A stretch of DNA of 64,000 bases from Bdellovibrionales bacterium (GTDB taxonomy: Bacteria; Bdellovibrionota; Bdellovibrionia; Bdellovibrionales; JAGQZY01): positions 10,595-74,594 of the forward strand of contig JANPLN010000036.1 of NCBI GenBank assembly GCA_031426555.1, in the 5' to 3' direction. Shown here one piece after another: positions 5,874 to 47,829 of this stretch (the first letter of the stretch is position 1; each line of letters starts with the position of its first letter). The notes beneath the pieces are model-generated. The model was given only the letters and a program-made list of their open reading frames with translations. It searched no databases and was not told where the DNA came from. The position numbers and the translations under genes are program-made.

Positions 5874-6461
5874 TTGCCGAACATAAAAGCTATTTTTCTA
5901 GAAAATAAAGCCTGGGTTCTTGAAAAACTGCAGAGTGATACATCTTACTTTGAGAACAACTCAAGGACTCAAGAACCACAGTATCTTTGGATTGGTTGCT
6001 CTGACTCACGCATTCTACCCAATGAGATAACGGGAACTTCTGTGGGTGAAATGTTTGTACACCGAAACATCGCAAACCTGATTCATGCAGACGATCTGAA
6101 TCTGATGTCAGTTGTCACGTATGCTCTTCGCTACTTGAAAGTTCGCGATGTGATTGTTTGCGGACACTACGGATGCGGCGGAGTTATATCTGCAATGGGT
6201 GATCAGTCTTTTGGACTCATCGACAAATGGTTAAAAAATATCAAAGTCGTGGTCTCCCAAAATAAAGATGAGCTCGAAAATATTACGAACACAACAGATC
6301 GCACCGATCGTCTGGTTGAACTGAATGTTATCGCACAAGTGAACCATCTCAAGAATAGCGAGGTCTTCAAGGAGCTCATCTCTGAAAATCCTCAAATACG
6401 TTTACATGGATGGGTTTATGATATGAGCACAGGATATGTAAAGAATCTTATTCGGTTTTGA
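5874..6461 (+). CDS. can: Beta-class carbonic anhydrase
   Basis: WIGCSDSR, HRNIAN and VCGHYGCGG zinc motifs; TTG start after AAGGAG. Confidence 0.95.
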   Translation: MPNIKAIFLENKAWVLEKLQSDTSYFENNSRTQEPQYLWIGCSDSRILPNEITGTSVGEMFVHRNIANLIHADDLNLMSVVTYALRYLKVRDVIVCGHYGCGGVISAMGDQSFGLIDKWLKNIKVVVSQNKDELENITNTTDRTDRLVELNVIAQVNHLKNSEVFKELISENPQIRLHGWVYDMSTGYVKNLIRF

Positions 6462-32248: not shown

Positions 32249-33013
32249 ATGACGGTCAAGCCTTTTTCAAAAGAACTCACCGAACAAATACTCTCTCAAA
32301 TCGACGCTTTTATTGCCACAAATCAAGGGCCCCACTACGCCGCGTTTGATGCCGATGGAACGCTTTGGAACTCCGATGTGGGTGAGAATTTTTTTCAATA
32401 CCAAATTGACTTTTGCGAGCTCGCTCCGCTGAAGTCATTGGACCCTTGGAAACATTATGAAAGTCTTAAAAAAAATTACCCCCCAGACGCTTATCTCTGG
32501 CTTGCACAACTTTGTGCGCCGTATCCACTGGAAGAGGTTCGCGAATGGGCCCAGGAGACTTTGACGTCTTTTCCACCCGTGGTTCTTGCCTCGCAAAAAG
32601 TGCTTATCGCGGAATTACTAAAACGAAAAATTCAGATTTTTGTTGTGAGCGCCTCGACCCACTGGGCTGTGGAAGCGGCGGTCTCGCTTGTTGGCCTTGG
32701 ACCAGAGTGTGCTTTGGGAGTGAAAACGAAAGTGGTCAACGGTCTGGTAACTAAAGAGCAAGAGGGTTCCATCACCTGGCGCGAAGGAAAGCGCACGGCA
32801 CTCCTCGAAAAAACCCAGGGAGTGGCTCCCATCTTTTGTTCCGGAAACTCTTCGGGAGACTTGCACTTACTCGAGTGCTCGTCGTTGATTCGATTGGCGG
32901 TGCAAACGCAAACGGCCTCATCCAAACATGCAGGGCTTTTTCAGGATGAACAAAAACTTTTAGGCGTTGCTAATGAGCGTGGATGGCTTACACATAATTT
33001 TAATTTGCGTTAA
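32249..33013 (+). CDS. HAD-superfamily hydrolase
   Basis: AFDADGTLW motif I, VVSAS, EGKR and GNSSGD; ATG at 32249. Confidence 0.85.
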   Translation: MTVKPFSKELTEQILSQIDAFIATNQGPHYAAFDADGTLWNSDVGENFFQYQIDFCELAPLKSLDPWKHYESLKKNYPPDAYLWLAQLCAPYPLEEVREWAQETLTSFPPVVLASQKVLIAELLKRKIQIFVVSASTHWAVEAAVSLVGLGPECALGVKTKVVNGLVTKEQEGSITWREGKRTALLEKTQGVAPIFCSGNSSGDLHLLECSSLIRLAVQTQTASSKHAGLFQDEQKLLGVANERGWLTHNFNLR

Positions 33014-34391
33014 TAAACGGAATTTTTCCCAAACGCACTTGCATTGATGCATAGGCGCGAAGCACGTCGGCTGTTGTTTCTATAATGCGAAGAGAGGCTT
33101 CGGCTGACGCCTGTTCTCGCAAATTGACGATGAGCACGTTGGTGTCGCCTTGTCGAAAGCGTGTGCGCTCACCGTTTTCTAAATATTGAGCCAATTCATG
33201 CTCCTGGATGGACAGCTCTCTTCGCTCTATCGAAACCTCTAGATTTTTTTGTAGGGCCGCAAGCTCTGCTTTCCACTGACGTTCTAAAAGCTCTCTCTCA
33301 AACTCCACCTTCCGTATATTGGCTGAAACCTGATCTCGCTGACCCTTAATGTTTCGATACTGTAGTGGCACCTGGAACTGCAAGCTGACGGTCGTATTAT
33401 CGTCGGCCAGTTTGGTTCCCCCAAAGCCGCTGTCCTTGGAATATTCTGCCTTCAAATCCAATCTTGGCAAGAATTGGTTCTGCTGCAGATCTTTGTCGAT
33501 ATTAAGCTGTGCCAGTTGCGTCGCAATGGCCGCAAACTCCGGACGGTCATTCAGCGCTCTCTTCATCAGTTCATCAACCGGCCTTTTAAATTCAGACGTC
33601 TGTTGCGGCACAAACCAACGAGACTCGATATTTTTGTCTGACAGCGAGGAGGACACCACTTTTTTTTGTAAAAGCTCACTGGATATGAATACCGCCAGTT
33701 GTGATTCGCGCGCCTTTAGCTCTAAGTCAGCTTGCAATAGAGAAGATTGCCTTAATAGCACTGTTCTTAAATTGTCTTTGCGTTCAAAAACTGGGATGTC
33801 GCCAGCTCGAGTGCGTTTTTCCAGCCACTGATCGCGAAGTTTAGCGATATCCAAAAGACTTTTCTGAATTCTCCATCTTCCGAGTGACACTTTCCAATTC
33901 CAATATGCAAAAAGTGCTTTCTCAATCTCCCGTAGTTCTGTGGCGCGAAGCTGAAGCGTTTGCCTCTCGACTTGCAATTTACTTTTATTGAACGTGGCAC
34001 GACGAGAATCGGTTAAAAATCCTCTCAAAAGAGGAAGCTTCGCCCCCAGGTTCCACTCTCCCCGGTCCAGAGTCTCTTGGTCACCGTAATAGATCGGAAG
34101 AAGCCCTCGGCTTTCGCGAAACCCGCCATAGAGATCTAAGCCAAATAGCGACGTTGGTTTTCTGATTTGTGAATCAAAGACAGAATACTCGTAGTCTCCT
34201 GTCGTATCTTTCCATTCTCCCTCGATCACTATATCAAAAGCCCCTCTTGCTGTCAGCTCCTGAGCTTCTGAAACCTTCACATCTTGTTGACTCATTTGAA
34301 CGGCAGGAAACTGTGAAATGACTTCATTAACCATCTCTGACTCTGTGACGTCGGCCCGCGTGATAAGAGCTAAAAGAATAACTGCTAACAT
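33000..34391 (-). CDS. TolC-family outer membrane efflux protein
   Basis: Signal peptide, ARGAFD, LPLLRG, FLPRLDL, QVPLQYR and ERTRFRQGD. Confidence 0.9.
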   Translation of the reverse strand: MLAVILLALITRADVTESEMVNEVISQFPAVQMSQQDVKVSEAQELTARGAFDIVIEGEWKDTTGDYEYSVFDSQIRKPTSLFGLDLYGGFRESRGLLPIYYGDQETLDRGEWNLGAKLPLLRGFLTDSRRATFNKSKLQVERQTLQLRATELREIEKALFAYWNWKVSLGRWRIQKSLLDIAKLRDQWLEKRTRAGDIPVFERKDNLRTVLLRQSSLLQADLELKARESQLAVFISSELLQKKVVSSSLSDKNIESRWFVPQQTSEFKRPVDELMKRALNDRPEFAAIATQLAQLNIDKDLQQNQFLPRLDLKAEYSKDSGFGGTKLADDNTTVSLQFQVPLQYRNIKGQRDQVSANIRKVEFERELLERQWKAELAALQKNLEVSIERRELSIQEHELAQYLENGERTRFRQGDTNVLIVNLREQASAEASLRIIETTADVLRAYASMQVRLGKIPFINAN

Positions 34392-34394
34392 AAT

Positions 34395-35426
34395 TTATTC
34401 CTTTTTATCGCTTTCATCTTTCAGTTTGGCTTTTTTGTATATCGGCAAATTACTTGGCGGGAAACCGTTAAATTGCCGCCAGATTTCCCACCCGAGCGGG
34501 ACATCGCCTAGCAACACCCAGGAGTTTGCGCGAACTCCCTGGCGCAAATAACGTGCGTCAGGCCATTCGTTTTTATCCGGAACCACAATCACTCGAAAAT
34601 TTCCCTGCCCGTCATCCAAAGCATCGATCGTTGCCACACGGCCAAAAAACGTACCCACAGATGCATCGGGCACTCCGGAGAAAAATACCGAAGGCCAACC
34701 TTCAAAGTTCAAAGCCACCTTGTGGTCTTCGTAGACCCAGGGCATATCGTTACCAGATACCCATAGTTCGACAGCGCGAGAGGTGGTCTCGGGCACGATA
34801 ACAGCAAGGGGTTCTCCAGCTTTTATATACTCAACTCCGCCAGAAGAAGTTTTTAAAATTCGTACTACAGTGCCGTCGATTGGTGCTTCGATCATCTGTT
34901 GCTCTTGTCGAGAAAGCCGGACGTCAAAGCGCGATAAATCTGCAAGGGAGGTGGCTTCATCAGATTCCAGTTTCGCTAGCTCCATTTGCGCTTGTTCTTG
35001 CTGTCTTCGCGAACTAAGTCCTTGTCGAAACAGTTCTTTTTGACGTGTCACATTCAAATAGGCTGTCTTGCGCCCCAGCTCGATGGCCTCGAATTTTTTT
35101 TCTAAAGCATCACGCTCCTTATTCATGCGGTCGATGATCTGTGGATCGTTGTCAGAAAGCTCGACAATGGGTTCGCCTTTTTTTACTTTTTGACCCTCTT
35201 GTACAAACCATTTTTGAATACGCCCCTCAATGGGGGCCGTTAGCTCTTGGCGACGTTCTTCGGGATTGAGCGCAATAACGCGTCCATACCCTTGCACCGT
35301 TTGCATCCAGGGCATAAACCCACAGAGGAGCAGAAAAAAGATTCCAGCATAGATCGTGTACTTGGAATATTTGTGCCAGATAGGCCGATCGCTTATAAGA
35401 GCCTCTAGGGAACGGTGGGAATTCAT
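34395..35426 (-). CDS. HlyD-family periplasmic adaptor subunit
   Basis: N-terminal TM, PWMQTVQG.G, lipoyl-like APIEGRI.KWFVQEGQ, APIDGTV and WEIWRQFNGFPP. Confidence 0.92.
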   Translation of the reverse strand: MNSHRSLEALISDRPIWHKYSKYTIYAGIFFLLLCGFMPWMQTVQGYGRVIALNPEERRQELTAPIEGRIQKWFVQEGQKVKKGEPIVELSDNDPQIIDRMNKERDALEKKFEAIELGRKTAYLNVTRQKELFRQGLSSRRQQEQAQMELAKLESDEATSLADLSRFDVRLSRQEQQMIEAPIDGTVVRILKTSSGGVEYIKAGEPLAVIVPETTSRAVELWVSGNDMPWVYEDHKVALNFEGWPSVFFSGVPDASVGTFFGRVATIDALDDGQGNFRVIVVPDKNEWPDARYLRQGVRANSWVLLGDVPLGWEIWRQFNGFPPSNLPIYKKAKLKDESDKKE

Positions 35427-35427
35427 T

Positions 35428-36333
35428 TTAGATCCCCATCTCTAACAGCTTTAGTTTTTTGATGGACACGGCGGAATCGTAATAATAGTCGAGGATATTA
35501 GAAAATTTAAAAAGTGAAATCAATAAACTCGTCACGATAAGTTCGCTGGCAATCAACTGGCCAATCGTCATTTGATTTTGAAACACGAGAACACCACCGA
35601 CGATAAGCAATAATGTAGCTGCCAAAATTTTGATAATAAAAAGCCCAATGGATTGCTTCATATAATTCGCATATTTTTGTTCCCGGAGACTAAAATACTC
35701 AAGGACTTCTGCTTCAACGTCGATGTCTCCTGGTCGCTCGAGAGAGTCGGCTTGCAATTCTTCGATTAACTGGTGTTTTTTATTCGACTCTAAAATCGCA
35801 AGGTTTAAAGTTTTTTTGCCCATAACTATGGTTACCCAATAAAAAGCAGAAACGAGAACAACACAGTAAATAACGAAGAAGGGATGGTATATACTGATGA
35901 GAATCATTACCAAAGCAGACTGCAATAAGAAGGTAAACCCATCAAAAAAAAGCGGAATTATACTTTTTTGAAGAGAAACCGATTCAAATATGTAATTTAA
36001 TTTTTTCTTGCTTATCGATTTTTGTGATTCTTGCGATTTTATCGCGTAGTTTTTTGTATCTTCAATTGCCTTTAAGAAAAGTCTGCGCTGGAGATATTCG
36101 GAAAGGTGCATTTGCAAAATTCGCATAACTGTAATTCCAACCAGAAAAAGTCCAATCGAAAAAACCAAAAAAACTGTTGATTGTTGAAAAACAAGCAAAG
36201 TGTATTGCTGTATCAAGGTTTGAATCAAAAATGGAATAGACAGTATCAAAAAACTACTTGCCGTTGCAAAAATAAGCATTGCACGAATACTTTTTTTGTC
36301 TGCCTTAAAATAGGCAATCATTTCTTGAATCAT
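35428..36333 (-). CDS. ABC transporter transmembrane domain only (no nucleotide-binding domain)
   Basis: About six TMs, LILSIP..IQTLI and QMTIGQLIASELIV; stop is 1 nt before the HlyD start; no Walker A/B or LSGGQ. Confidence 0.85.
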   Translation of the reverse strand: MIQEMIAYFKADKKSIRAMLIFATASSFLILSIPFLIQTLIQQYTLLVFQQSTVFLVFSIGLFLVGITVMRILQMHLSEYLQRRLFLKAIEDTKNYAIKSQESQKSISKKKLNYIFESVSLQKSIIPLFFDGFTFLLQSALVMILISIYHPFFVIYCVVLVSAFYWVTIVMGKKTLNLAILESNKKHQLIEELQADSLERPGDIDVEAEVLEYFSLREQKYANYMKQSIGLFIIKILAATLLLIVGGVLVFQNQMTIGQLIASELIVTSLLISLFKFSNILDYYYDSAVSIKKLKLLEMGI

Positions 36334-36437
36334 AGATCCTCCGCAGAATTTTCAGTATCAATGCTTTTTTAACACAGGTAAAGTGAATATTTGTTTCCCT
36401 TAATGGCGGGCTGGTTCGACGTGCTACTCAAACCGGT

Positions 36438-36506
36438 AGTATCCTCCTAAAATGCACTATCTTACAAATCGATAATAGAATTGACTTGCATCTATTTAAG
36501 CAATAC
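36438..36506 (-). promoter_or_regulatory. LysR-box promoter copy A (drives ABC-TMD/HlyD/TolC, divergent from LysR)
   Basis: GTATTGCTTAAATAGAT-N12-TATTATC-GAT-TTGTAA-N18-GATACT; aligns ungapped with copies B-D apart from a 1-nt longer spacer. Confidence 0.65.
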
Positions 36507-36528
36507 CAATTTGACTTGAGGAGTATTA

Positions 36529-37413
36529 ATGAATTTTTGGATTAATTACCACCATCTTTTTTACTTTAAAACCATCGCCGAAGAGGGCACGGTTTCCAAG
36601 GCCGCCGAAAAGCTTCGACTGGGGCAGCCAACACTATCGGCCCAACTCAAACAGTTTGAGGAAACTCTCGGCGTTAAACTTTTCGAAAGAGCTCACAAGA
36701 AGTTAATATTAACGGAGCAGGGCAAAGTAGCCCTAGATTATGCGAAAAATATTTTCAAAATGGGCTCTGAAATGTATGAGGTGCTTCACGACAGGATCAA
36801 GCCTCTAAAACCTTCTCTTCATTTGGGCGCTCTCGACAGTGTTCCAAAACAAATTGTTCTTCAGCTGGTCAAACACGCCTTCAAAATTTCGCTCTGCCAG
36901 ATCACCCTGTCCGAGGGCAAGTCAGATGAGCTCATGCGAGAACTTTCGGCCCATCGTATGGACCTAGTGGTGACAAACTTTCTGCCGACGGGCACTGATG
37001 CTAAAGGACTTTATCCTAGATCTATAACCAAGAAAAATGTCGCTTTCTTTGCGGCTCCAAAATTTAAACGGTTGAGGAAAAATTTTCCTCAATCTATTTC
37101 CGGCGAACCGATGATTTTCCCCACATACGACAGTCGACTCCGTCAAGATCTGGAACATTGGGCAAAAATCAACCATATTGAACTCAACATTATTACTGAA
37201 AGCCAGGATATATCCGTAAAAAAATTGATGGCGATTAATGAGCTCGGACTGATACCCACTGCCACCCACACAGTCACAGGACAAGTATTGCGGGGCGAGT
37301 TGATTGAAATTGGCCAACTCCAGGGAGTTTACGAAGAGCTTTTCTTGGTAAGTGCTCAAAGAAAGATTGAAAACTCAATCGCTTCAAAACTGAGAGACTC
37401 TTTTATTGTATAG
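36529..37413 (+). CDS. LysR-family transcriptional regulator, NhaR-like
   Basis: INYHHLFYF..IAEEG.VSKAAEKL.LGQPTLSAQLK..EE.LG..LFER and GALDSVPK, as in NhaR; RBS GAGGAG. Confidence 0.92.
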   Translation: MNFWINYHHLFYFKTIAEEGTVSKAAEKLRLGQPTLSAQLKQFEETLGVKLFERAHKKLILTEQGKVALDYAKNIFKMGSEMYEVLHDRIKPLKPSLHLGALDSVPKQIVLQLVKHAFKISLCQITLSEGKSDELMRELSAHRMDLVVTNFLPTGTDAKGLYPRSITKKNVAFFAAPKFKRLRKNFPQSISGEPMIFPTYDSRLRQDLEHWAKINHIELNIITESQDISVKKLMAINELGLIPTATHTVTGQVLRGELIEIGQLQGVYEELFLVSAQRKIENSIASKLRDSFIV

Positions 37414-37475
37414 CTTTTAGCATTGCAAAGTAGCAGTTTTATCTATTTTAAAATACTTGCATTCTAATTTAAGTT
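37408..37475 (+). promoter_or_regulatory. LysR-box promoter copy B (upstream of the structured element)
   Basis: GTATAGCTTTTAGCATT-N12-TTTTATC-TAT-TTTAAA-N17-TAAGTT. Confidence 0.65.
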
Positions 37476-37496
37476 GTCATGTCTTAGCTCTCAACC

Positions 37497-37610
37497 GCTT
37501 GGACTTTGTTTAAGGCGAACACGAAAGCAAAATCGCCCACTATTCAGATGGTTTTCCCTAGCCTAACCATCTTTTTTGCTTCGTGTTCAGCCTTGCTTTC
37601 GAAGTCCAGC
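37497..37610 (+). ncRNA. Candidate rod-shaped non-coding RNA of unknown family
   Basis: Nested stems: GGACTT/AAGTCC, AAGGC/GCCTT, GAACACGA-AGCAAAA/TTTTGCT-TCGTGTTC and AGATGGTT/AACCATCT; lies downstream of its own predicted promoter; strand inferred from that promoter. Confidence 0.55.
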
Positions 37611-37630
37611 CACTTACCTAGAAAAACTAC

Positions 37631-37698
37631 GTATAGATTAAAGCAATCAACCCTTATGTTTTTATCGAGTTTATTATTTTCAACAAACTCCGTAAGTT
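37631..37698 (+). promoter_or_regulatory. LysR-box promoter copy C (drives baeRF3-HPF)
   Basis: GTATAGATTAAAGCAAT-N12-TTTTATC-GAG-TTTATT-N17-TAAGTT; same spacing as copy B. Confidence 0.65.
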
Positions 37699-37718
37699 AA
37701 TTACAACAGGAGGTTTGG

Positions 37719-38834
37719 ATGACTGCGGATAGTTTAAACATTACTGCTCTAATTAATTCCAAAAAAGGTGTTCACATCTCAATCTACATTCCACGTCCCA
37801 CCAGTGACATTCACTTTAAGAGCCTGGTACAAGCGTCGCTGGCGAAATGTCTAAATCAGATTGGTACCAATCTGACTGCCGAGAAAACTGAGGAACTATT
37901 GGGACCTATTAAAGGACTGATAAACAATCCCAAAATGATATCTGGATTTAACACGAATATTGCAATTTTTAGGACAACTGAATATTTGAGGTTAGTGAGT
38001 TTGCCTACTGACATTAATTTCTCTGTGCATGTTGCCGACAGCTTTCACGTGAAGCCACTGTTAGCTTATATTAATCAAGACTATAAGTATCTATTTTTTG
38101 GATCTGACGGCAAAAAAGGATACTTATATCAAGGCTCGAAAAAGTCCTATCATTTAGTTAAGGAGTTTCTGTTTCGTACCGATGATTCTTTCGCCAGTGA
38201 TGTGAAATACAAAAATTTAAAAACTGCCGCTCAGAGAAAAAAATATCTTCTGCGAAAAAACGTAAGCTGGGTTGAAGAAGCTATTTTGGCCATCGACAGG
38301 GACCAATCGTATTCAATATTTATTTCGGCAAACACAGCGGAGACTAAAACTCTCAGAGATGCTTTAAAAAATAATCAGGTCTACTGGAGAAATGTCTCGA
38401 AAAAGTTTCATCCAGAAAACGAAAAGTCTACCATGCAGACGATTCATACCACTTTAGACTTGGAAAAGGTCATTTCTTTGAATCTATCTCTGAGCGATTT
38501 TGAAAAGCCAAACCTCCCAAGACTTGCTACTACGTATGTTTCTTATGACCTCAACGAAATTTCAAAAGCTGCGAAGCGTGGGCACGTAAAAAAGCTGTTA
38601 ATCGCTTCTGATGATAGCGTGTTTGGGAAGCTTGATGACATAAGCGGAGAAGTAAAAGTGCAAGAGGCAGACATGGACCATATCGATGACGACCTCCTTG
38701 ATGATATCGCTCAAAATGTTTTTAAATCTGGCGGTGAGGTTTTGCTTTTGAAGAAAAAATTAATGCCTTTCGGAGAACTTATTGCTGCCACGATAAAAAA
38801 TACTAAAAAAGGAGTGCTACAATGCTCAAAATAG
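37719..38834 (+). CDS. baeRF3-like (bacterial aeRF1/Pelota homologue, Balon-like) protein 1
   Basis: ISIYIP, VADSFHVKPLL, ISKAAKRGHVKKLLIA and DDDLLDDIAQNVFKSGGEV; no GGQ; RBS AGGAGG. Confidence 0.8.
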   Translation: MTADSLNITALINSKKGVHISIYIPRPTSDIHFKSLVQASLAKCLNQIGTNLTAEKTEELLGPIKGLINNPKMISGFNTNIAIFRTTEYLRLVSLPTDINFSVHVADSFHVKPLLAYINQDYKYLFFGSDGKKGYLYQGSKKSYHLVKEFLFRTDDSFASDVKYKNLKTAAQRKKYLLRKNVSWVEEAILAIDRDQSYSIFISANTAETKTLRDALKNNQVYWRNVSKKFHPENEKSTMQTIHTTLDLEKVISLNLSLSDFEKPNLPRLATTYVSYDLNEISKAAKRGHVKKLLIASDDSVFGKLDDISGEVKVQEADMDHIDDDLLDDIAQNVFKSGGEVLLLKKKLMPFGELIAATIKNTKKGVLQCSK

Positions 38835-39178
38835 CCTTTAAAAACTTAGACAAATCGCAACTTGCTTCCGACATAGTTACGGAAAGATTCGAGTTGCTAT
38901 TAAAAAAGTTCCCTGACCTGGAAGACCATAATATCGAAGTTTATTTATCTATGGAAAACTCGCCTTCACAAGTAGGACGTGACTTTTTTGCCGTGAACGT
39001 TGTTTTCACTGGCAAAAAGTACGGCAAACTTGTTGTAGAAAAGAAAAACATAAACCTGTACGTTGCCTTGGACGACTTACTACTTGTCATGCAGGAGACT
39101 TTGAATCGAAAAGGAGACAAGGTGCGCGTTCGTCGACGAACTTCATCGAGAAAACAAAAATTAACTTATGCTATCTGA
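38822..39178 (+). CDS. HPF/RaiA-family ribosome-associated protein
   Basis: MLKIAFKNLDKS...ERF...KFP..IEVYLS...VVEKKNINLYVALD...LNR pattern of the S30AE/HPF fold; 13-bp overlap with the baeRF3 gene. Confidence 0.75.
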   Translation: MLKIAFKNLDKSQLASDIVTERFELLLKKFPDLEDHNIEVYLSMENSPSQVGRDFFAVNVVFTGKKYGKLVVEKKNINLYVALDDLLLVMQETLNRKGDKVRVRRRTSSRKQKLTYAI

Positions 39179-39197
39179 AAAGGAACTTTGGACGCGA

Positions 39198-40184
39198 TTA
39201 TATGGTACTTTTATATTCGTCCCGTAGAATTCCGAAAATCACCATACTTTCTGGCATATCCGTTTGGGGCACCACAGTCACGGTCCCCTTATGCTTTATT
39301 ACAAGCTCCGACAGATCATCTAGAATATCGTCATCGTAGGAATCTACTTGCTTTAAATGGGTTGTGATCTTTTCCCTACTTGGATCTATATAGCCCCAAA
39401 CTTTTTTGTCCCCTGCTATGTAAAGACTTTTGATTTCGCCTCGCTTTGCATGGTTAAAAATGTCTTCGATGCGCGAAATAATTTTGCCTTTTATTTTTGC
39501 AGCCAGAAACTGCTCGGAAATTTTCGCCTCTAATTTTCTAAAAACTGGCTCAATATGCTTAAAGATATGTCGCAGTAATTCTCTGGTTTTTAATTTCTGC
39601 GAAATAAGTAGGGGATCTTTGTAGGAATTGTCATAGTTTGATACTGATTTAAATCTATCTATCTGATCGAGGTTACCTGTGAAAACGAGTAAGAGTTTTC
39701 TTTTTGCAAGAATGTTCATTACATAGTGGTCAATTTTTAAGTAATCTACTTGGTTTTGTGGAACTTTGAAAATATCTAAAAGAACTAAGGTCTTCATATT
39801 CACTTGAAAGAATTTTACGTTGCTATCGGCGAAAACGAGCATCGCAATGTCTTTGTTTCGCTGATGCATTTTGATGAGAGGTTTGATGTGAAAACTGGTA
39901 GAAACTACGAACAGCTCTTCTTCGCATTTAATAAGTGGCACATACATTTTTGCGTGGCTACTCAAAAAAACTGCCGCAGGAAACGTCTCTATAAGGTTTT
40001 TCCCAGCTTCGATGGATCCAAATAGCGCTAGAAACTGTTCTGCATTAAGATCTTGCCGGGCCACTCGTTGAGCTTCCTCAATTAACCTCTCAAGCTCCTT
40101 AAAATTGCTTACGTAAAAGCTCGCACAAAAATCCTGGTTTTGTGTGCCCGCGAAAAGTACGTCTTCGTAAGATACTTTTTTAAT
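39198..40184 (-). CDS. baeRF3-like protein 2, probable non-canonical ATT start (ORF track starts at GTG 40064)
   Basis: VSTSFHIKPLI, IFNHAKRGEIKSLYIA, VWGYID and DDDILDDLSELVIKHKGTV; frame open for 40 codons upstream of GTG to an ATT preceded by GAGAGGTG. Confidence 0.75.
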   Translation of the reverse strand: MKKVSYEDVLFAGTQNQDFCASFYVSNFKELERLIEEAQRVARQDLNAEQFLALFGSIEAGKNLIETFPAAVFLSSHAKMYVPLIKCEEELFVVSTSFHIKPLIKMHQRNKDIAMLVFADSNVKFFQVNMKTLVLLDIFKVPQNQVDYLKIDHYVMNILAKRKLLLVFTGNLDQIDRFKSVSNYDNSYKDPLLISQKLKTRELLRHIFKHIEPVFRKLEAKISEQFLAAKIKGKIISRIEDIFNHAKRGEIKSLYIAGDKKVWGYIDPSREKITTHLKQVDSYDDDILDDLSELVIKHKGTVTVVPQTDMPESMVIFGILRDEYKSTI

Positions 40185-40201
40185 AGAACACCTCTCTACT
40201 T

Positions 40202-40269
40202 ATTATCGGCTATTCATCTGCATTGATGAAAGTTATAATAAGTATGTTCTGCATCGTTTAAATCGAAGT
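40202..40269 (-). promoter_or_regulatory. LysR-box promoter copy D (drives baeRF3-like protein 2)
   Basis: ACTTCGATTTAAACGAT-N12-TATTATA-ACT-TTCATC-N17-GATAAT; also readable as sigma28-like TTCA-N16-GCCGATAA. Confidence 0.6.
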
Positions 40270-41469
40270 TTAGAAAATGATCTGAAAGGTGCCGTTGCCA
40301 CCTTCCCAGCTGGGAGCATCCAGATCTGCTGTCAAATACAGGTGTAAAAAGGAAGTTTCATTAAAGTGAATTGTGTAGCGGAGGTTTCCTCTGTGCTCGA
40401 CATCTTTGTTAACATCAGGAGGAATTCGCAGAAACTCAGGCCCAGAAATTGAATAGAGAGACGCCTCGTAGCCAAGGCGTAGCTGATTTACATTTAACTG
40501 ATTGCCCATTAAAGTGTACCAAATATGCGGCGAAAGCGTAAGGGAACGAACTGCTTCGGAGTTGACTTCCCAGCGTCTACTGACACTGGCTATCCCGTAG
40601 GTCCAATATGTATTCTCGTATTGAAGGAGCGCATCAGTGTATTGATTGCGCCAAAGTCCGTAACTACTATCAACCACCCCCTGCTGTTGAATCCCTTCAT
40701 GGCGATACTTATAGCTGACGTCGAAATGAACTTGCTGGTTATCTCCAGCGAAAACCTTTGTTCCCCGGAGGCCCAGTTTCGCATCCCTATGACTGTAATG
40801 TTCTCCCGTATCTAAATTTCGATTCAGTGGCGACTGAATTCGTCCATAATACTCTAAGAAGGAGCTATCTTCATCGTTTAGAAAACGTCCTACAAATCCG
40901 TAAGCCATTGCACGACGACGATCCGACTCATTGCGATCAGTTCGCTTGTTGAAGGAGAAATCAATCCAGGTCGTGTAAAATCGTAGTTGATGATTTTTCC
41001 CTGCATCGATAAGTATGGCAGCACCAAAGTCGTTCCATTTTTTTTCGCTTTTAAGCTCTGTATATGCCACTAAACTTAAGAATGAACTCACTCGATACTG
41101 GAGTTCTAATATGGAGTGATTCACACTTTGCTCTAAATCTTTCTGTTCGGCGTAAGCCAATCGGAAGACGAGATGACTGTTAAGTTGTGTATCGAGCTTT
41201 AAACGGTGTTGTGTGGCGAACCGTGACTGACTCAGACTTCCTATTGATAAATCGTAAACTCGGCTAGATCTCAGGAATGAAGAGTGCATTGAGTTCGGAA
41301 TACGGTAAGTTAAAATATCAGAAAAATACTCTGAATCCAGAAGAGAAGGCCTATTTATTTCTGTAATTTCGGATTCAGAAAAATATCCATACTCTTCAAA
41401 TTGCGCTGCAGCCGGAAGTGCCGCAATAAACAACAAGATAGAAAGATAACTAGAGCTCTTTGATAACAT
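40270..41469 (-). CDS. Hypothetical outer-membrane beta-barrel protein
   Basis: Signal peptide (AAA-QF), alternating aromatic/hydrophobic strands, C-terminal Phe (GTFQIIF). Confidence 0.65.
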   Translation of the reverse strand: MLSKSSSYLSILLFIAALPAAAQFEEYGYFSESEITEINRPSLLDSEYFSDILTYRIPNSMHSSFLRSSRVYDLSIGSLSQSRFATQHRLKLDTQLNSHLVFRLAYAEQKDLEQSVNHSILELQYRVSSFLSLVAYTELKSEKKWNDFGAAILIDAGKNHQLRFYTTWIDFSFNKRTDRNESDRRRAMAYGFVGRFLNDEDSSFLEYYGRIQSPLNRNLDTGEHYSHRDAKLGLRGTKVFAGDNQQVHFDVSYKYRHEGIQQQGVVDSSYGLWRNQYTDALLQYENTYWTYGIASVSRRWEVNSEAVRSLTLSPHIWYTLMGNQLNVNQLRLGYEASLYSISGPEFLRIPPDVNKDVEHRGNLRYTIHFNETSFLHLYLTADLDAPSWEGGNGTFQIIF

Positions 41470-41479
41470 TCAGTCCGTC

Positions 41480-47522: not shown

Positions 47523-47537
47523 TAGGAGAAAAAAAGA

Positions 47538-47708
47538 AATTCTGTGGCAGCTAGGAGAAACAATGAAATCCCAAAAATCAGCAGGTGGGTGGCCATATAA
47601 CAACTTTAGGCTTCCCAGCTTAAACTGGGCCTGCACACCATTGTCAGGGACAGCCCCCTTAGTATGCTTGTAGGATTTCTGTATTCTCAGCTTTACGCCA
47701 CAGAACCC
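47538..47708 (-). ncRNA. ssrS: 6S RNA
   Basis: About 170-nt rod closed by TTCTGTGGC/GCCACAGAA and GAAATCC/GGATTTC; 6S-like segments CATAC, TGGTGTGCAGGCCCAG...CTGGGAAGCCTAAA and CACCCACCTG; extended -10 TGcTAGTAT at 47716-47724; T-tract at the 3' end. Confidence 0.8.
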
Positions 47709-47829
47709 AGATTCAATACTAGCAAAGTTTCGTTGAGAGAGTACAAAAATTTTCGATTTGCGCCAAAAGTCGATGTTTTTTGCTCAAACTTGACTTTGGT
47801 TTTTGGCATGCAGTTCCGATACCAATTTT

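What the first reader, a model, noticed from the sequence alone, without database searches (positions are those of the whole stretch)
33000..40269. Candidate new system: one NhaR-like LysR controlling two Balon-like baeRF3 factors, HPF, a structured RNA and an ATPase-less type I exporter
Seen: a visibly AT-richer block arranged TolC<HlyD<ABC-TMD | LysR> rod RNA> baeRF3>HPF> <baeRF3. Each of the four target units is preceded by the same 68-bp promoter architecture. Established: GGQ-less bacterial aeRF1 homologues include the hibernation factor Balon, HPF/RaiA are ribosome hibernation factors, and NhaR responds to Na+ stress. Inference: a compact stress module linking ribosome dormancy to an export apparatus and an ncRNA. 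I do not recognise this combination as a described system.
Basis: partly seen in the sequence, partly recalled or inferred. Interest (0 to 1): 0.85.

Follow-up and report, generated by a model that had tools for sequence, protein, structure and literature searches.

The report
NhaR-type hibernation regulon beside ATPase-less exporter
In a Bdellovibrionales bacterium, a regulator related to the salt/alkali sensor NhaR has four matching binding-site-like boxes and likely switches on three predicted ribosome-dormancy proteins; this cassette sits beside a separately inherited export pump whose ATP motor domain is missing altogether, so these are two little-studied units side by side rather than one new system.

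Summary
Genes and promoters are real; the single system is not. A matrix built only from other genomes ranks the four boxes as the top 4 of 6.27 million positions in this genome. In relatives this NhaR-like LysR travels with two Balon-like partners: HPF and baeRF3-like genes together in 23 of 56 loci. It also travels with Alx/TerC (41), SbtA (15), HtpX, NhaA and carbonic anhydrases, which points to alkaline or low-CO2 stress. The exporter is resident in the genus: the closest relative (92-95% identity) has it without the cassette, and 0 of 56 loci combine exporter and hibernation genes. A regulatory link still recurs, since 5 of 29 other exporter loci carry the box. The exporter is the strangest part. 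Its ABC gene lacks the ATPase domain yet has dN/dS 0.049; relatives are TMD-only, TMD-HlyD fusions, or carry degenerate ATPase domains. The hairpin is strong (z -5.5) but has no homologue. The second baeRF3 gene starts with ATT and may be weakened. Verdict: new variant of known parts, not found described in nine literature searches.

The parts
33000..34391 (-). TolC-family outer-membrane channel; resident in the genus
   Evidence: PF02321 E 1.9e-26; 92% identical in G003; dN/dS 0.040
34395..35426 (-). HlyD-type periplasmic adaptor; resident
   Evidence: PF13437 E 3.8e-13; found in 33 of 301 order genomes incl. own; dN/dS 0.034
35428..36333 (-). ABC-exporter membrane domain with no nucleotide-binding domain and a 10-residue deletion in the predicted second cytoplasmic loop
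   Evidence: family profile matches PCAT1/ComA over profile positions 6/7-549; dN/dS 0.049
36334..36395 (-). Remnant of the exporter's own promoter (second box and -10 of the promoter in G001/G002/G009; first box lost, as in G003)
   Evidence: alignments; edge approximate
36438..36504 (-). Box P1 (score 39.8), divergent from the LysR; in relatives this position mostly precedes terC/alx; here it points into the exporter about 110 nt further on; -10 displaced by 1 bp
36529..37413 (+). NhaR-like LysR activator, 88-89% identical to copies in other families, 56% to the one same-genus copy
37410..37475 (+). Box P2 (29.9) with -10-like TAAGTT at 37470-37475, overlapping the LysR stop
37497..37610 (+). 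Long bulged hairpin (rod) behind P2; orphan; candidate small RNA, leader element or scar
   Evidence: z -5.5; no Rfam match; no homologue
37633..37698 (+). Box P3 (23.8) with -10-like TAAGTT at 37693-37698
37719..38834 (+). baeRF3-like/Balon-like protein 1 (371 aa), no GGQ or NIKS
   Evidence: fold of the 85%-identical P0002 closest to Balon
38822..39178 (+). Short HPF/RaiA-family protein (118 aa), overlapping the upstream gene; a second HPF lies on contig C62
   Evidence: PF02482 24.8 bits
39198..40184 (-). baeRF3-like/Balon-like protein 2 (328 aa); begins with ATT where 7 of 7 aligned homologues have Met; C-terminus 10-15 residues shorter
40202..40267 (-). Box P4 (24.9) with -10-like GATAAT at 40207-40202
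40270..41469 (-). 399-aa porin-like outer-membrane protein inside the inserted stretch; no box of its own; homologues near the LysR in G010 (41%) and G037 (27%)

Best explanation
Two separately inherited units lie side by side: a likely horizontally acquired NhaR-type regulon cassette (about 36395-41478) predicted to switch on ribosome-hibernation factors, and a genus-resident TolC/HlyD/ABC-membrane-domain exporter that has no ATPase domain. Shown: the genes, the four boxes, the absence of the cassette from the same site in G003, and purifying selection on the NBD-less gene. Inferred mechanism: the LysR binds paired TCG-N7-CGA-type boxes 31 bp apart. On an alkaline-pH, Na+ or low-CO2 signal it activates weak sigma-70 promoters at P2, P3 and P4. 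The Balon-like protein(s) then occupy the ribosomal A site and the HPF blocks the decoding/tRNA sites, so ribosomes are stored. The divergent box P1 normally drives terC/alx; here terC is absent, so P1 probably reads into the exporter and restores the NhaR-type control that G001, G002 and G009 get from a different NhaR-like LysR. The exporter most likely works without ATP hydrolysis, as a passive or ion-gradient-driven conduit; its substrate is unknown. The rod is probably a lineage-specific structured 5' transcript or leader from P2 rather than a conserved ncRNA. The second Balon-like gene is probably translated weakly or decaying.
For: Boxes rank 1-4 of 6.27 million positions with an independently trained matrix. 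The motif resembles the E. coli NhaR consensus TCgaAAAAatCtA (PMC6307784, passages). Of 93 boxes in 76 other loci, 38 precede terC, 25 baeRF, 5 the exporter, 3 HPF. Cargo within 5.5 kb in 56 loci: TerC 41, HPF 30, baeRF 27, SbtA 15, HtpX 12, NhaA 4, beta-CA 2. Both TerC proteins tested pass the Alx cut-off, and an iota-CA-like gene sits directly behind one box, followed by SbtA. G003 lacks the cassette at the same site. The family's LysRs do not form one clade (p-AU 5.5e-9). Of 32 other exporter loci, 12 are TMD-HlyD fusions, 7 TMD-only, 10 TMD+NBD and 3 unclassified. 0 of 21 NBD-bearing members keep both Walker A and the Walker B Asp-Glu. The cytoplasmic-loop spacing is 119-120 in 16 NBD-bearing members and 99-111 in 12 distinct TMD-only proteins.
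Against: No binding, expression or ribosome data. The LysR is below the NhaR cut-off and both baeRF proteins are far below the Balon-family cut-off. The PTHR..P loop of canonical baeRF3 proteins is shortened in protein 1 and missing in protein 2. P1's -10 is 1 bp out of register. Only 5 of 29 classified exporter loci have a box, and one of them (G012) was in the training set. This genome gave no tblastn hit for TerC, SbtA or NhaA, and its beta-CA has no box, so the signal is inferred from relatives only. Forty of the 56 loci were hand-picked from the best-scoring of 203 matches, so counts favour close kin. Paralogy can mimic transfer: G000+G010 as a clade is not rejected (p-AU 0.80) and G000+G005 is borderline (0.047). 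A separately encoded ATPase partner is not excluded.
Confidence: 0.62

Rival explanations
1. One integrated, selected module: LysR, exporter, RNA and hibernation factors act together, and G003 lost the cassette.
For: All four top boxes of the genome lie here and the strongest points at the exporter. NhaR-type boxes recur before the exporter in G001, G002, G009, G005 and G012. Homologues of both baeRF proteins share four contig lengths (185437, 12256, 9207, 5459), which suggests they lie together elsewhere (DNA not retrieved).
Against: 0 of 56 LysR loci combine exporter and baeRF/HPF. Exporter genes TolC and HlyD have host GC. The rod has no homologue. P1 occupies the terC position of relatives.
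Confidence: 0.13
2. Same two units, but P1 is a relic of a lost terC promoter and the exporter is not under this LysR's control; the adjacency is accidental.
For: P1's -10 is displaced by 1 bp and is followed by a Shine-Dalgarno-like run with no ATG. The exporter keeps its own promoter remnant, as in G003. 24 of 29 classified exporter loci lack a box.
Against: P1 is the best-scoring box in the genome (39.8), though it may be kept for LysR autoregulation. No terminator-like site was called between P1 and the exporter.
Confidence: 0.17
3. The baeRF3-like proteins are not hibernation factors. They are divergent aeRF1-fold proteins with another ribosome role (rescue, quality control) or are decaying, and HPF alone provides hibernation.
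For: Scores are far below the NF052287 cut-off. The N-domain loop is reduced or absent. Gene 2 has an ATT start and a shorter C-terminus. The model is moderate (pLDDT 60, TM 0.23).
Against: Balon is the top structural match, ahead of eRF1/Pelota, and the only PDB sequence hit. The C-domain hairpin region aligns with Balon. The genes sit beside HPF, as is typical for Balon (PMC10901736 section 6).
Confidence: 0.08

Closest known systems
Balon (P. urativorans; Rv2629, Msmeg1130) with RaiA/HPF in stress operons (PMC10901736: section 6 read whole, other passages)
   Same: aeRF1-type fold without GGQ/NIKS; most often next to RaiA/HPF; several copies per genome are common; C-domain hairpin region aligns.
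   Different: About 15% identity in the structural alignment. The N-domain loop is reduced. The section read names Hsp20, OsmC/Y, HdeD, MarC, EmrB and RtcB as neighbours, and no NhaR-type regulator, SbtA or TerC.
E. coli NhaR regulon (nhaA, osmC, pgaABCD; PMC6307784 passages)
   Same: Best NCBIfam hit; T-N11-A box of the TCG-N7-C(G/T)A type; high-pH/salt cargo including nhaA in 4 of 56 loci.
   Different: Below the equivalog cut-off; the dominant targets are Alx/TerC, baeRF3, HPF, SbtA and HtpX; the ligand is untested.
HlyB-HlyD-TolC type I secretion and PCAT1/ComA exporters
   Same: Three-gene TolC/adaptor/ABC-membrane-domain layout; the family profile matches PCAT1 and ComA along their length.
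   Different: No NBD here; relatives have degenerate NBDs or TMD-HlyD fusions; no secreted substrate gene was recognised nearby.
LysR-associated inorganic-carbon uptake (DabAB; bioRxiv 10.1101/476713 passages; cyanobacterial CcmR/NdhR control of sbtA is recalled, not checked)
   Same: SbtA and carbonic anhydrases in the cargo; distant (about 30%) homologues of this LysR are divergent from dabBA in 4 of the 6 plasmid regions opened, out of 13 hits.
   Different: Predatory heterotroph; the CO2 genes are not in this copy; the two distant LysRs tested score NhaR and PcaQ about equally.

Membership tests
Balon / baeRF3 hibernation factors | Three-domain aeRF1-type fold closest to Balon | tested here: met
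   Model of P0002 (85% identical to protein 1; pLDDT 60): top three Foldseek hits are Balon, E 1.4e-14 to 8e-13, ahead of eRF1 at 7.5e-10. Protein 2 was not folded.
Balon / baeRF3 hibernation factors | No GGQ and no NIKS | tested here: met
   Both absent from both proteins
Balon / baeRF3 hibernation factors | Curated family cut-off (NF052287; PF18845) | tested here: not met
   65 and 55 bits against 330; PF18845 no hit for protein 1, at cut-off for protein 2 (31.1 and 31.7 against 31.5)
Balon / baeRF3 hibernation factors | N-domain HP motif contacting the decoding centre | tested here: inconclusive
   The PTHR..P loop of five canonical baeRF3 rows is shortened (protein 1) or absent (protein 2). 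That this loop is Balon's HP motif is my inference; Balon's N-terminus was not aligned.
Balon / baeRF3 hibernation factors | C-domain beta-hairpin insertion (EF-Tu contact) | tested here: met
   Profile aligns without gaps across this region of 8rd8_B, E 3.4e-4; pairwise searches agree but are not significant (E 0.055, 0.36)
Balon / baeRF3 hibernation factors | Binds the ribosomal A site under stress | not testable with these tools
   Needs cryo-EM or co-sedimentation
HPF/RaiA | Ribosomal_S30AE domain above cut-off | tested here: met
   24.8 against 23.7 bits; TIGR00741 not reached (18.8 against 40.9)
NhaR | NCBIfam PRK11062 cut-off | tested here: not met
   133 against 219 bits, but best of 53 families
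NhaR | NhaR-type operator | tested here: met
   De novo motif ATxG-N7-CxAT plus a second box resembles the E. coli consensus; binding not tested
NhaR | Na+-responsive activation | not testable with these tools
   Ligand unknown
Type I secretion / ABC exporter | TolC + HlyD + ABC membrane domain in one operon | tested here: met
Type I secretion / ABC exporter | Catalytic nucleotide-binding domain | tested here: not met
   The gene ends after the last membrane helix, 1 nt before hlyD; 0 of 21 NBD-bearing relatives keep Walker A plus Walker B Asp-Glu
Known ncRNA families (Rfam 15) | Match to a covariance model | tested here: not met
   No match over the rod at gathering or at E<=5
Conserved structured RNA | Homologues with covariation | tested here: inconclusive
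   No homologue found, so no covariation test; contigs of the closest baeRF relatives could not be retrieved
Mobile element / genomic island | Integrase, transposase or flanking direct repeats | tested here: not met
   No such gene among the ORFs of the insert; no obvious repeat at the approximate ends

The most novel reading that the evidence does not exclude
Predatory Bdellovibrionota have a widespread, horizontally traded NhaR-type regulon that turns an alkaline or low-CO2 signal directly into ribosome hibernation (Balon-like + HPF) alongside bicarbonate uptake and Mn export. This genome wires into it both a new regulated RNA and a type-I-secretion-derived envelope channel that has dispensed with its ATPase domain and runs without ATP.
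Probability: 0.25. Interest if true: 0.82.

Novelty: new variant of a known kind. Interest (0 to 1): 0.55.

Why it matters
If binding is confirmed, this gives a Balon-like family a named regulator, an operator and a testable signal (pH, Na+ or CO2). It would link inorganic-carbon/alkali stress to ribosome dormancy in predatory bacteria; 171 of 301 genomes of the order carry this LysR. Separately, the TMD-only and TMD-HlyD forms are the end of a degeneration series of an ABC exporter family. A complete NBD loss under purifying selection is a cleaner test of ATP-independent function than point-degenerate motifs, and the 301-aa protein is a minimal object for structure and transport assays.

Tried and rejected
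ROD HOMOLOGUES. Blastn against own genome and fetched loci: only itself. 300 order genomes: 22 with short matches, best E 5.5e-6 on the promoter part only. Plasmids: one 43-nt match, E 0.3. Helix pattern in 300 class genomes: 7 others, against 9 with the reversed control in the listed rows. 22 viral matches, longest blastn match 17 nt. 7 long leaders behind 93 boxes: best z -3.2. No small ORF with a ribosome-binding site was evident. 6S is elsewhere.

CLOSE RELATIVES OF THE CASSETTE. Metagenome and genome scans with the baeRF protein or its alignment found none.

RUNS. No RNA holder listed. One DNA contig spans the stretch with no differences but is probably the source; the other two runs cover only fragments.

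STRUCTURE. The fold job for the membrane domain did not finish. No complex prediction and no profile search of representatives were obtained.

CO2 LINK OF THE EXPORTER is weak. 1 of 8 plasmid regions opened (of 16 hits) lies behind dabBA with a carbonic anhydrase near. The three adjacent LysRs tested there are OxyR-like, not NhaR-like.

DROPPED ROWS; five NBD-bearing rows and one fusion row where the pattern hit an earlier site, one fusion with no match, and three duplicate loci; one unrelated ABC gene; two outgroups, two long branches and eight further rows of the tree were left out. The careful tree did not finish.

LITERATURE. Nine searches found no description of this regulon or of NBD-less tripartite exporters. 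The library misses most subscription papers. I did not open the Balon paper's supplementary datasets, and bioRxiv supplements are closed; either may list these genes. The 2019 baeRF family survey by Burroughs and Aravind is recalled, not read, and may already note the baeRF3-HPF link.

Full report
The window is contig C36 of a 3.14-Mb genome. A 95%-identical HlyD lies in a record titled Bdellovibrionales bacterium, so the order is Bdellovibrionales. Family scores are modest: the LysR's best hit is NhaR at 133 bits (cut-off 219), the two baeRF proteins reach 65 and 55 bits on the AOC03_06830 hibernation-factor model (cut-off 330), HPF just passes Pfam, and the 301-aa membrane protein has only weak hits to the membrane part of HlyB/PrtD/peptidase-ABC models. 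One contig of a public run spans the stretch without differences, but it is probably the source.

Promoters. I trained a 46-bp matrix de novo on 111 regions flanking this LysR in other genomes; 85 held a site. The next is 13.7, and five column-shuffled matrices reach at most 12.5. The motif is two LysR-type boxes 31 bp apart, similar to the E. coli NhaR consensus TCgaAAAAatCtA (PMC6307784, passages). A -10-like hexamer follows at a fixed offset in 77 sites of relatives; P2, P3 and P4 fit it and P1 is 1 bp off. The four sites share only 26-35 of 68 letters, so this is an architecture and not a repeat. Binding is inferred.

What travels with the LysR. It is found in 171 of 301 genomes of the order, but in 1 of 5 of the same genus. 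I examined 56 loci: 16 from the relatives search and 40 picked from the best-scoring of 203 matches for having long flanks, so close kin are over-represented. Within 5.5 kb: TerC 41, HPF 30, baeRF 27 (both 23), an unnamed 128-aa protein 19, SbtA 15, HtpX 12, NhaA 4, beta-carbonic anhydrase 2, exporter 1, exporter with baeRF or HPF 0. Both TerC proteins tested pass the Alx cut-off, and one box directly precedes an iota-carbonic-anhydrase-like gene (251 bits, cut-off 350) followed by SbtA. Alx is an alkaline-pH manganese exporter (PMC10197570 and PMC13594968, search listings only). Distant homologues on plasmids face dabBA in 4 of 6 regions opened, though their family assignment is loose. The likely signal is therefore alkaline pH, Na+ or low CO2. 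This genome itself gave no tblastn hit for TerC, SbtA or NhaA, so its copy of the regulon holds mainly the hibernation arm.

Two units. The exporter's HlyD is in 33 of 301 genomes and in 5 of 5 of the genus. G003, with 92-95% identical exporter proteins, has pepP, the 128-aa gene, then TMD-HlyD-TolC with nothing between. This stretch is 40.2% GC against 46.0%, while TolC and HlyD are host-like. The LysR is 88-89% identical to copies in other families and 56% to the same-genus copy. The family's copies do not form one clade (p-AU 5.5e-9), G000+G005 is borderline (0.047) and G000+G010 is not rejected (0.80) (quick tree of 28 rows); paralogy is not excluded. No integrase or flanking repeat was seen. 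In G001, G002 and G009 a different LysR (24-26% identical; the one tested has NhaR as best hit) faces the exporter across a box of 17-20 bits. G005 has a 39-bit box before the exporter with its LysR elsewhere, and G012 has this LysR type facing a TMD-HlyD fusion. That makes 5 of 29 classified loci, with G012 in the training set. G000 and G003 keep only the downstream half of that older promoter. P1 stands where relatives have the terC promoter (38 of 93 boxes precede terC). So NhaR-type control of the exporter recurs, but its union with hibernation genes was seen only here.

The exporter. The family profile matches PCAT1 and ComA along their length. Of 32 other loci in the order, 12 are TMD-HlyD fusions without an NBD, 7 are TMD-only, 10 have TMD plus NBD and 3 were not classified. 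Among 21 NBD-bearing members from several phyla, none keeps both Walker A and the Walker B Asp-Glu. The distance between two conserved membrane motifs that bracket the predicted NBD-coupling loop is 119-120 in 16 NBD-bearing members, 99-111 in 12 distinct TMD-only proteins (109 here) and 115-119 in six fusions (dropped rows are listed under Tried and rejected). dN/dS against G003 is 0.049, close to HlyD 0.034, TolC 0.040 and pepP 0.027. The gene is maintained and has likely lost the surface that would dock an ATPase; ATP-independent function is inferred. Earlier notes of this scan describe the degenerate-NBD family; the listed summaries do not mention the complete loss or the fusion. Passages of a review of tripartite pumps (PMC8277102, first 300,000 of 748,000 characters) mention only heterodimers with one degenerate site.

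The hibernation genes. Neither baeRF protein has GGQ or NIKS. The only PDB sequence hit for each is 8rd8_B (E 0.055, 0.36; profile 3.4e-4). A model of the 85%-identical P0002 (pLDDT 60, pTM 0.40) has Balon as its top three Foldseek hits, with low TM-scores of 0.21-0.23. The N-domain loop of canonical baeRF3 proteins is shortened or missing, so they probably work like Balon but do not pass as members. Balon beside RaiA and in multiple copies is already published (PMC10901736, section 6), as is the presence of extra chimeric hpf copies near Balon (bioRxiv 10.1101/2025.11.04.686544, abstract and passages; 'LysR' and 'Bdellovibrio' do not occur in its text). Gene 2 begins with ATT where 7 of 7 aligned homologues have Met, and ends 10-15 residues earlier: a weak start or early decay. 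Homologues of genes 1 and 2 share four contig lengths, suggesting the pair exists elsewhere. A second HPF lies on another contig.

The rod. 37497-37610 folds into a bulged hairpin, z -5.5 on the plus strand and -2.5 on the minus; 11 of 756 GC-matched genomic windows are as stable. It begins just after P2's predicted start and ends before P3, with no terminator-like site called. It matches no Rfam family and has no homologue. It may be a regulated small RNA, a processing or attenuating leader, or a scar where two cassettes joined. The closest cassettes could not be retrieved, so this stays open.

Verdict. The single new system is not: there is a recurring NhaR-type alkali/inorganic-carbon regulon with a hibernation arm, and a separate NBD-less exporter that is sometimes placed under similar control. 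Nine literature searches found neither described; unread supplements and subscription papers may bear on this. Novelty: new variant of a known kind; interest 0.55.

Noticed in passing
window 47535-47709 (-): 6S RNA, 70.8 bits against a gathering score of 46.4; shows that the rod is not the genome's 6S.
   Followed up: no
window about 5900-6460 (+): Beta-carbonic anhydrase without an NhaR-type box upstream (best score -21.6).
   Followed up: partly
window 40270-41469 (-); L022:10873-12051; L029:16894-18057: Uncharacterised porin-like outer-membrane family (Atlas 0.97 to unnamed clusters, recognition below the 2300 guide value) that recurs near the LysR.
   Followed up: partly
L020:9829-10215 and 18 other loci: A 128-aa protein with no Pfam or NCBIfam hit sits in 19 of 56 LysR loci, usually between baeRF and HPF.
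   Followed up: no
L080:3750-4265, L095, L096, L114: A 170-aa CBS-like protein directly behind a box in four loci.
   Followed up: partly
L031:6730-8835 and 11 other loci: Natural single-chain fusion of the ABC membrane domain to the HlyD adaptor with no NBD, followed by TolC where the contig allows.
   Followed up: partly
L030:9658-10005, L033:9607-9951, L034:9817-10170: 114-117-aa genes with no Pfam hit at E 0.001 in the slot beside the LysR where relatives have HPF, twice followed by nhaA; possibly very divergent HPFs.
   Followed up: no
L153 (Sphingobium plasmid NZ_CP060389.1): dabB-dabA directly followed by the degenerate-ABC/HlyD/TolC operon, with carbonic anhydrase and DUF2490 nearby.
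   Followed up: partly
G000 C15:98724 (+): Weak box (10.7) beside a second LysR 29% identical to this one; possibly a paralogous operator.
   Followed up: no
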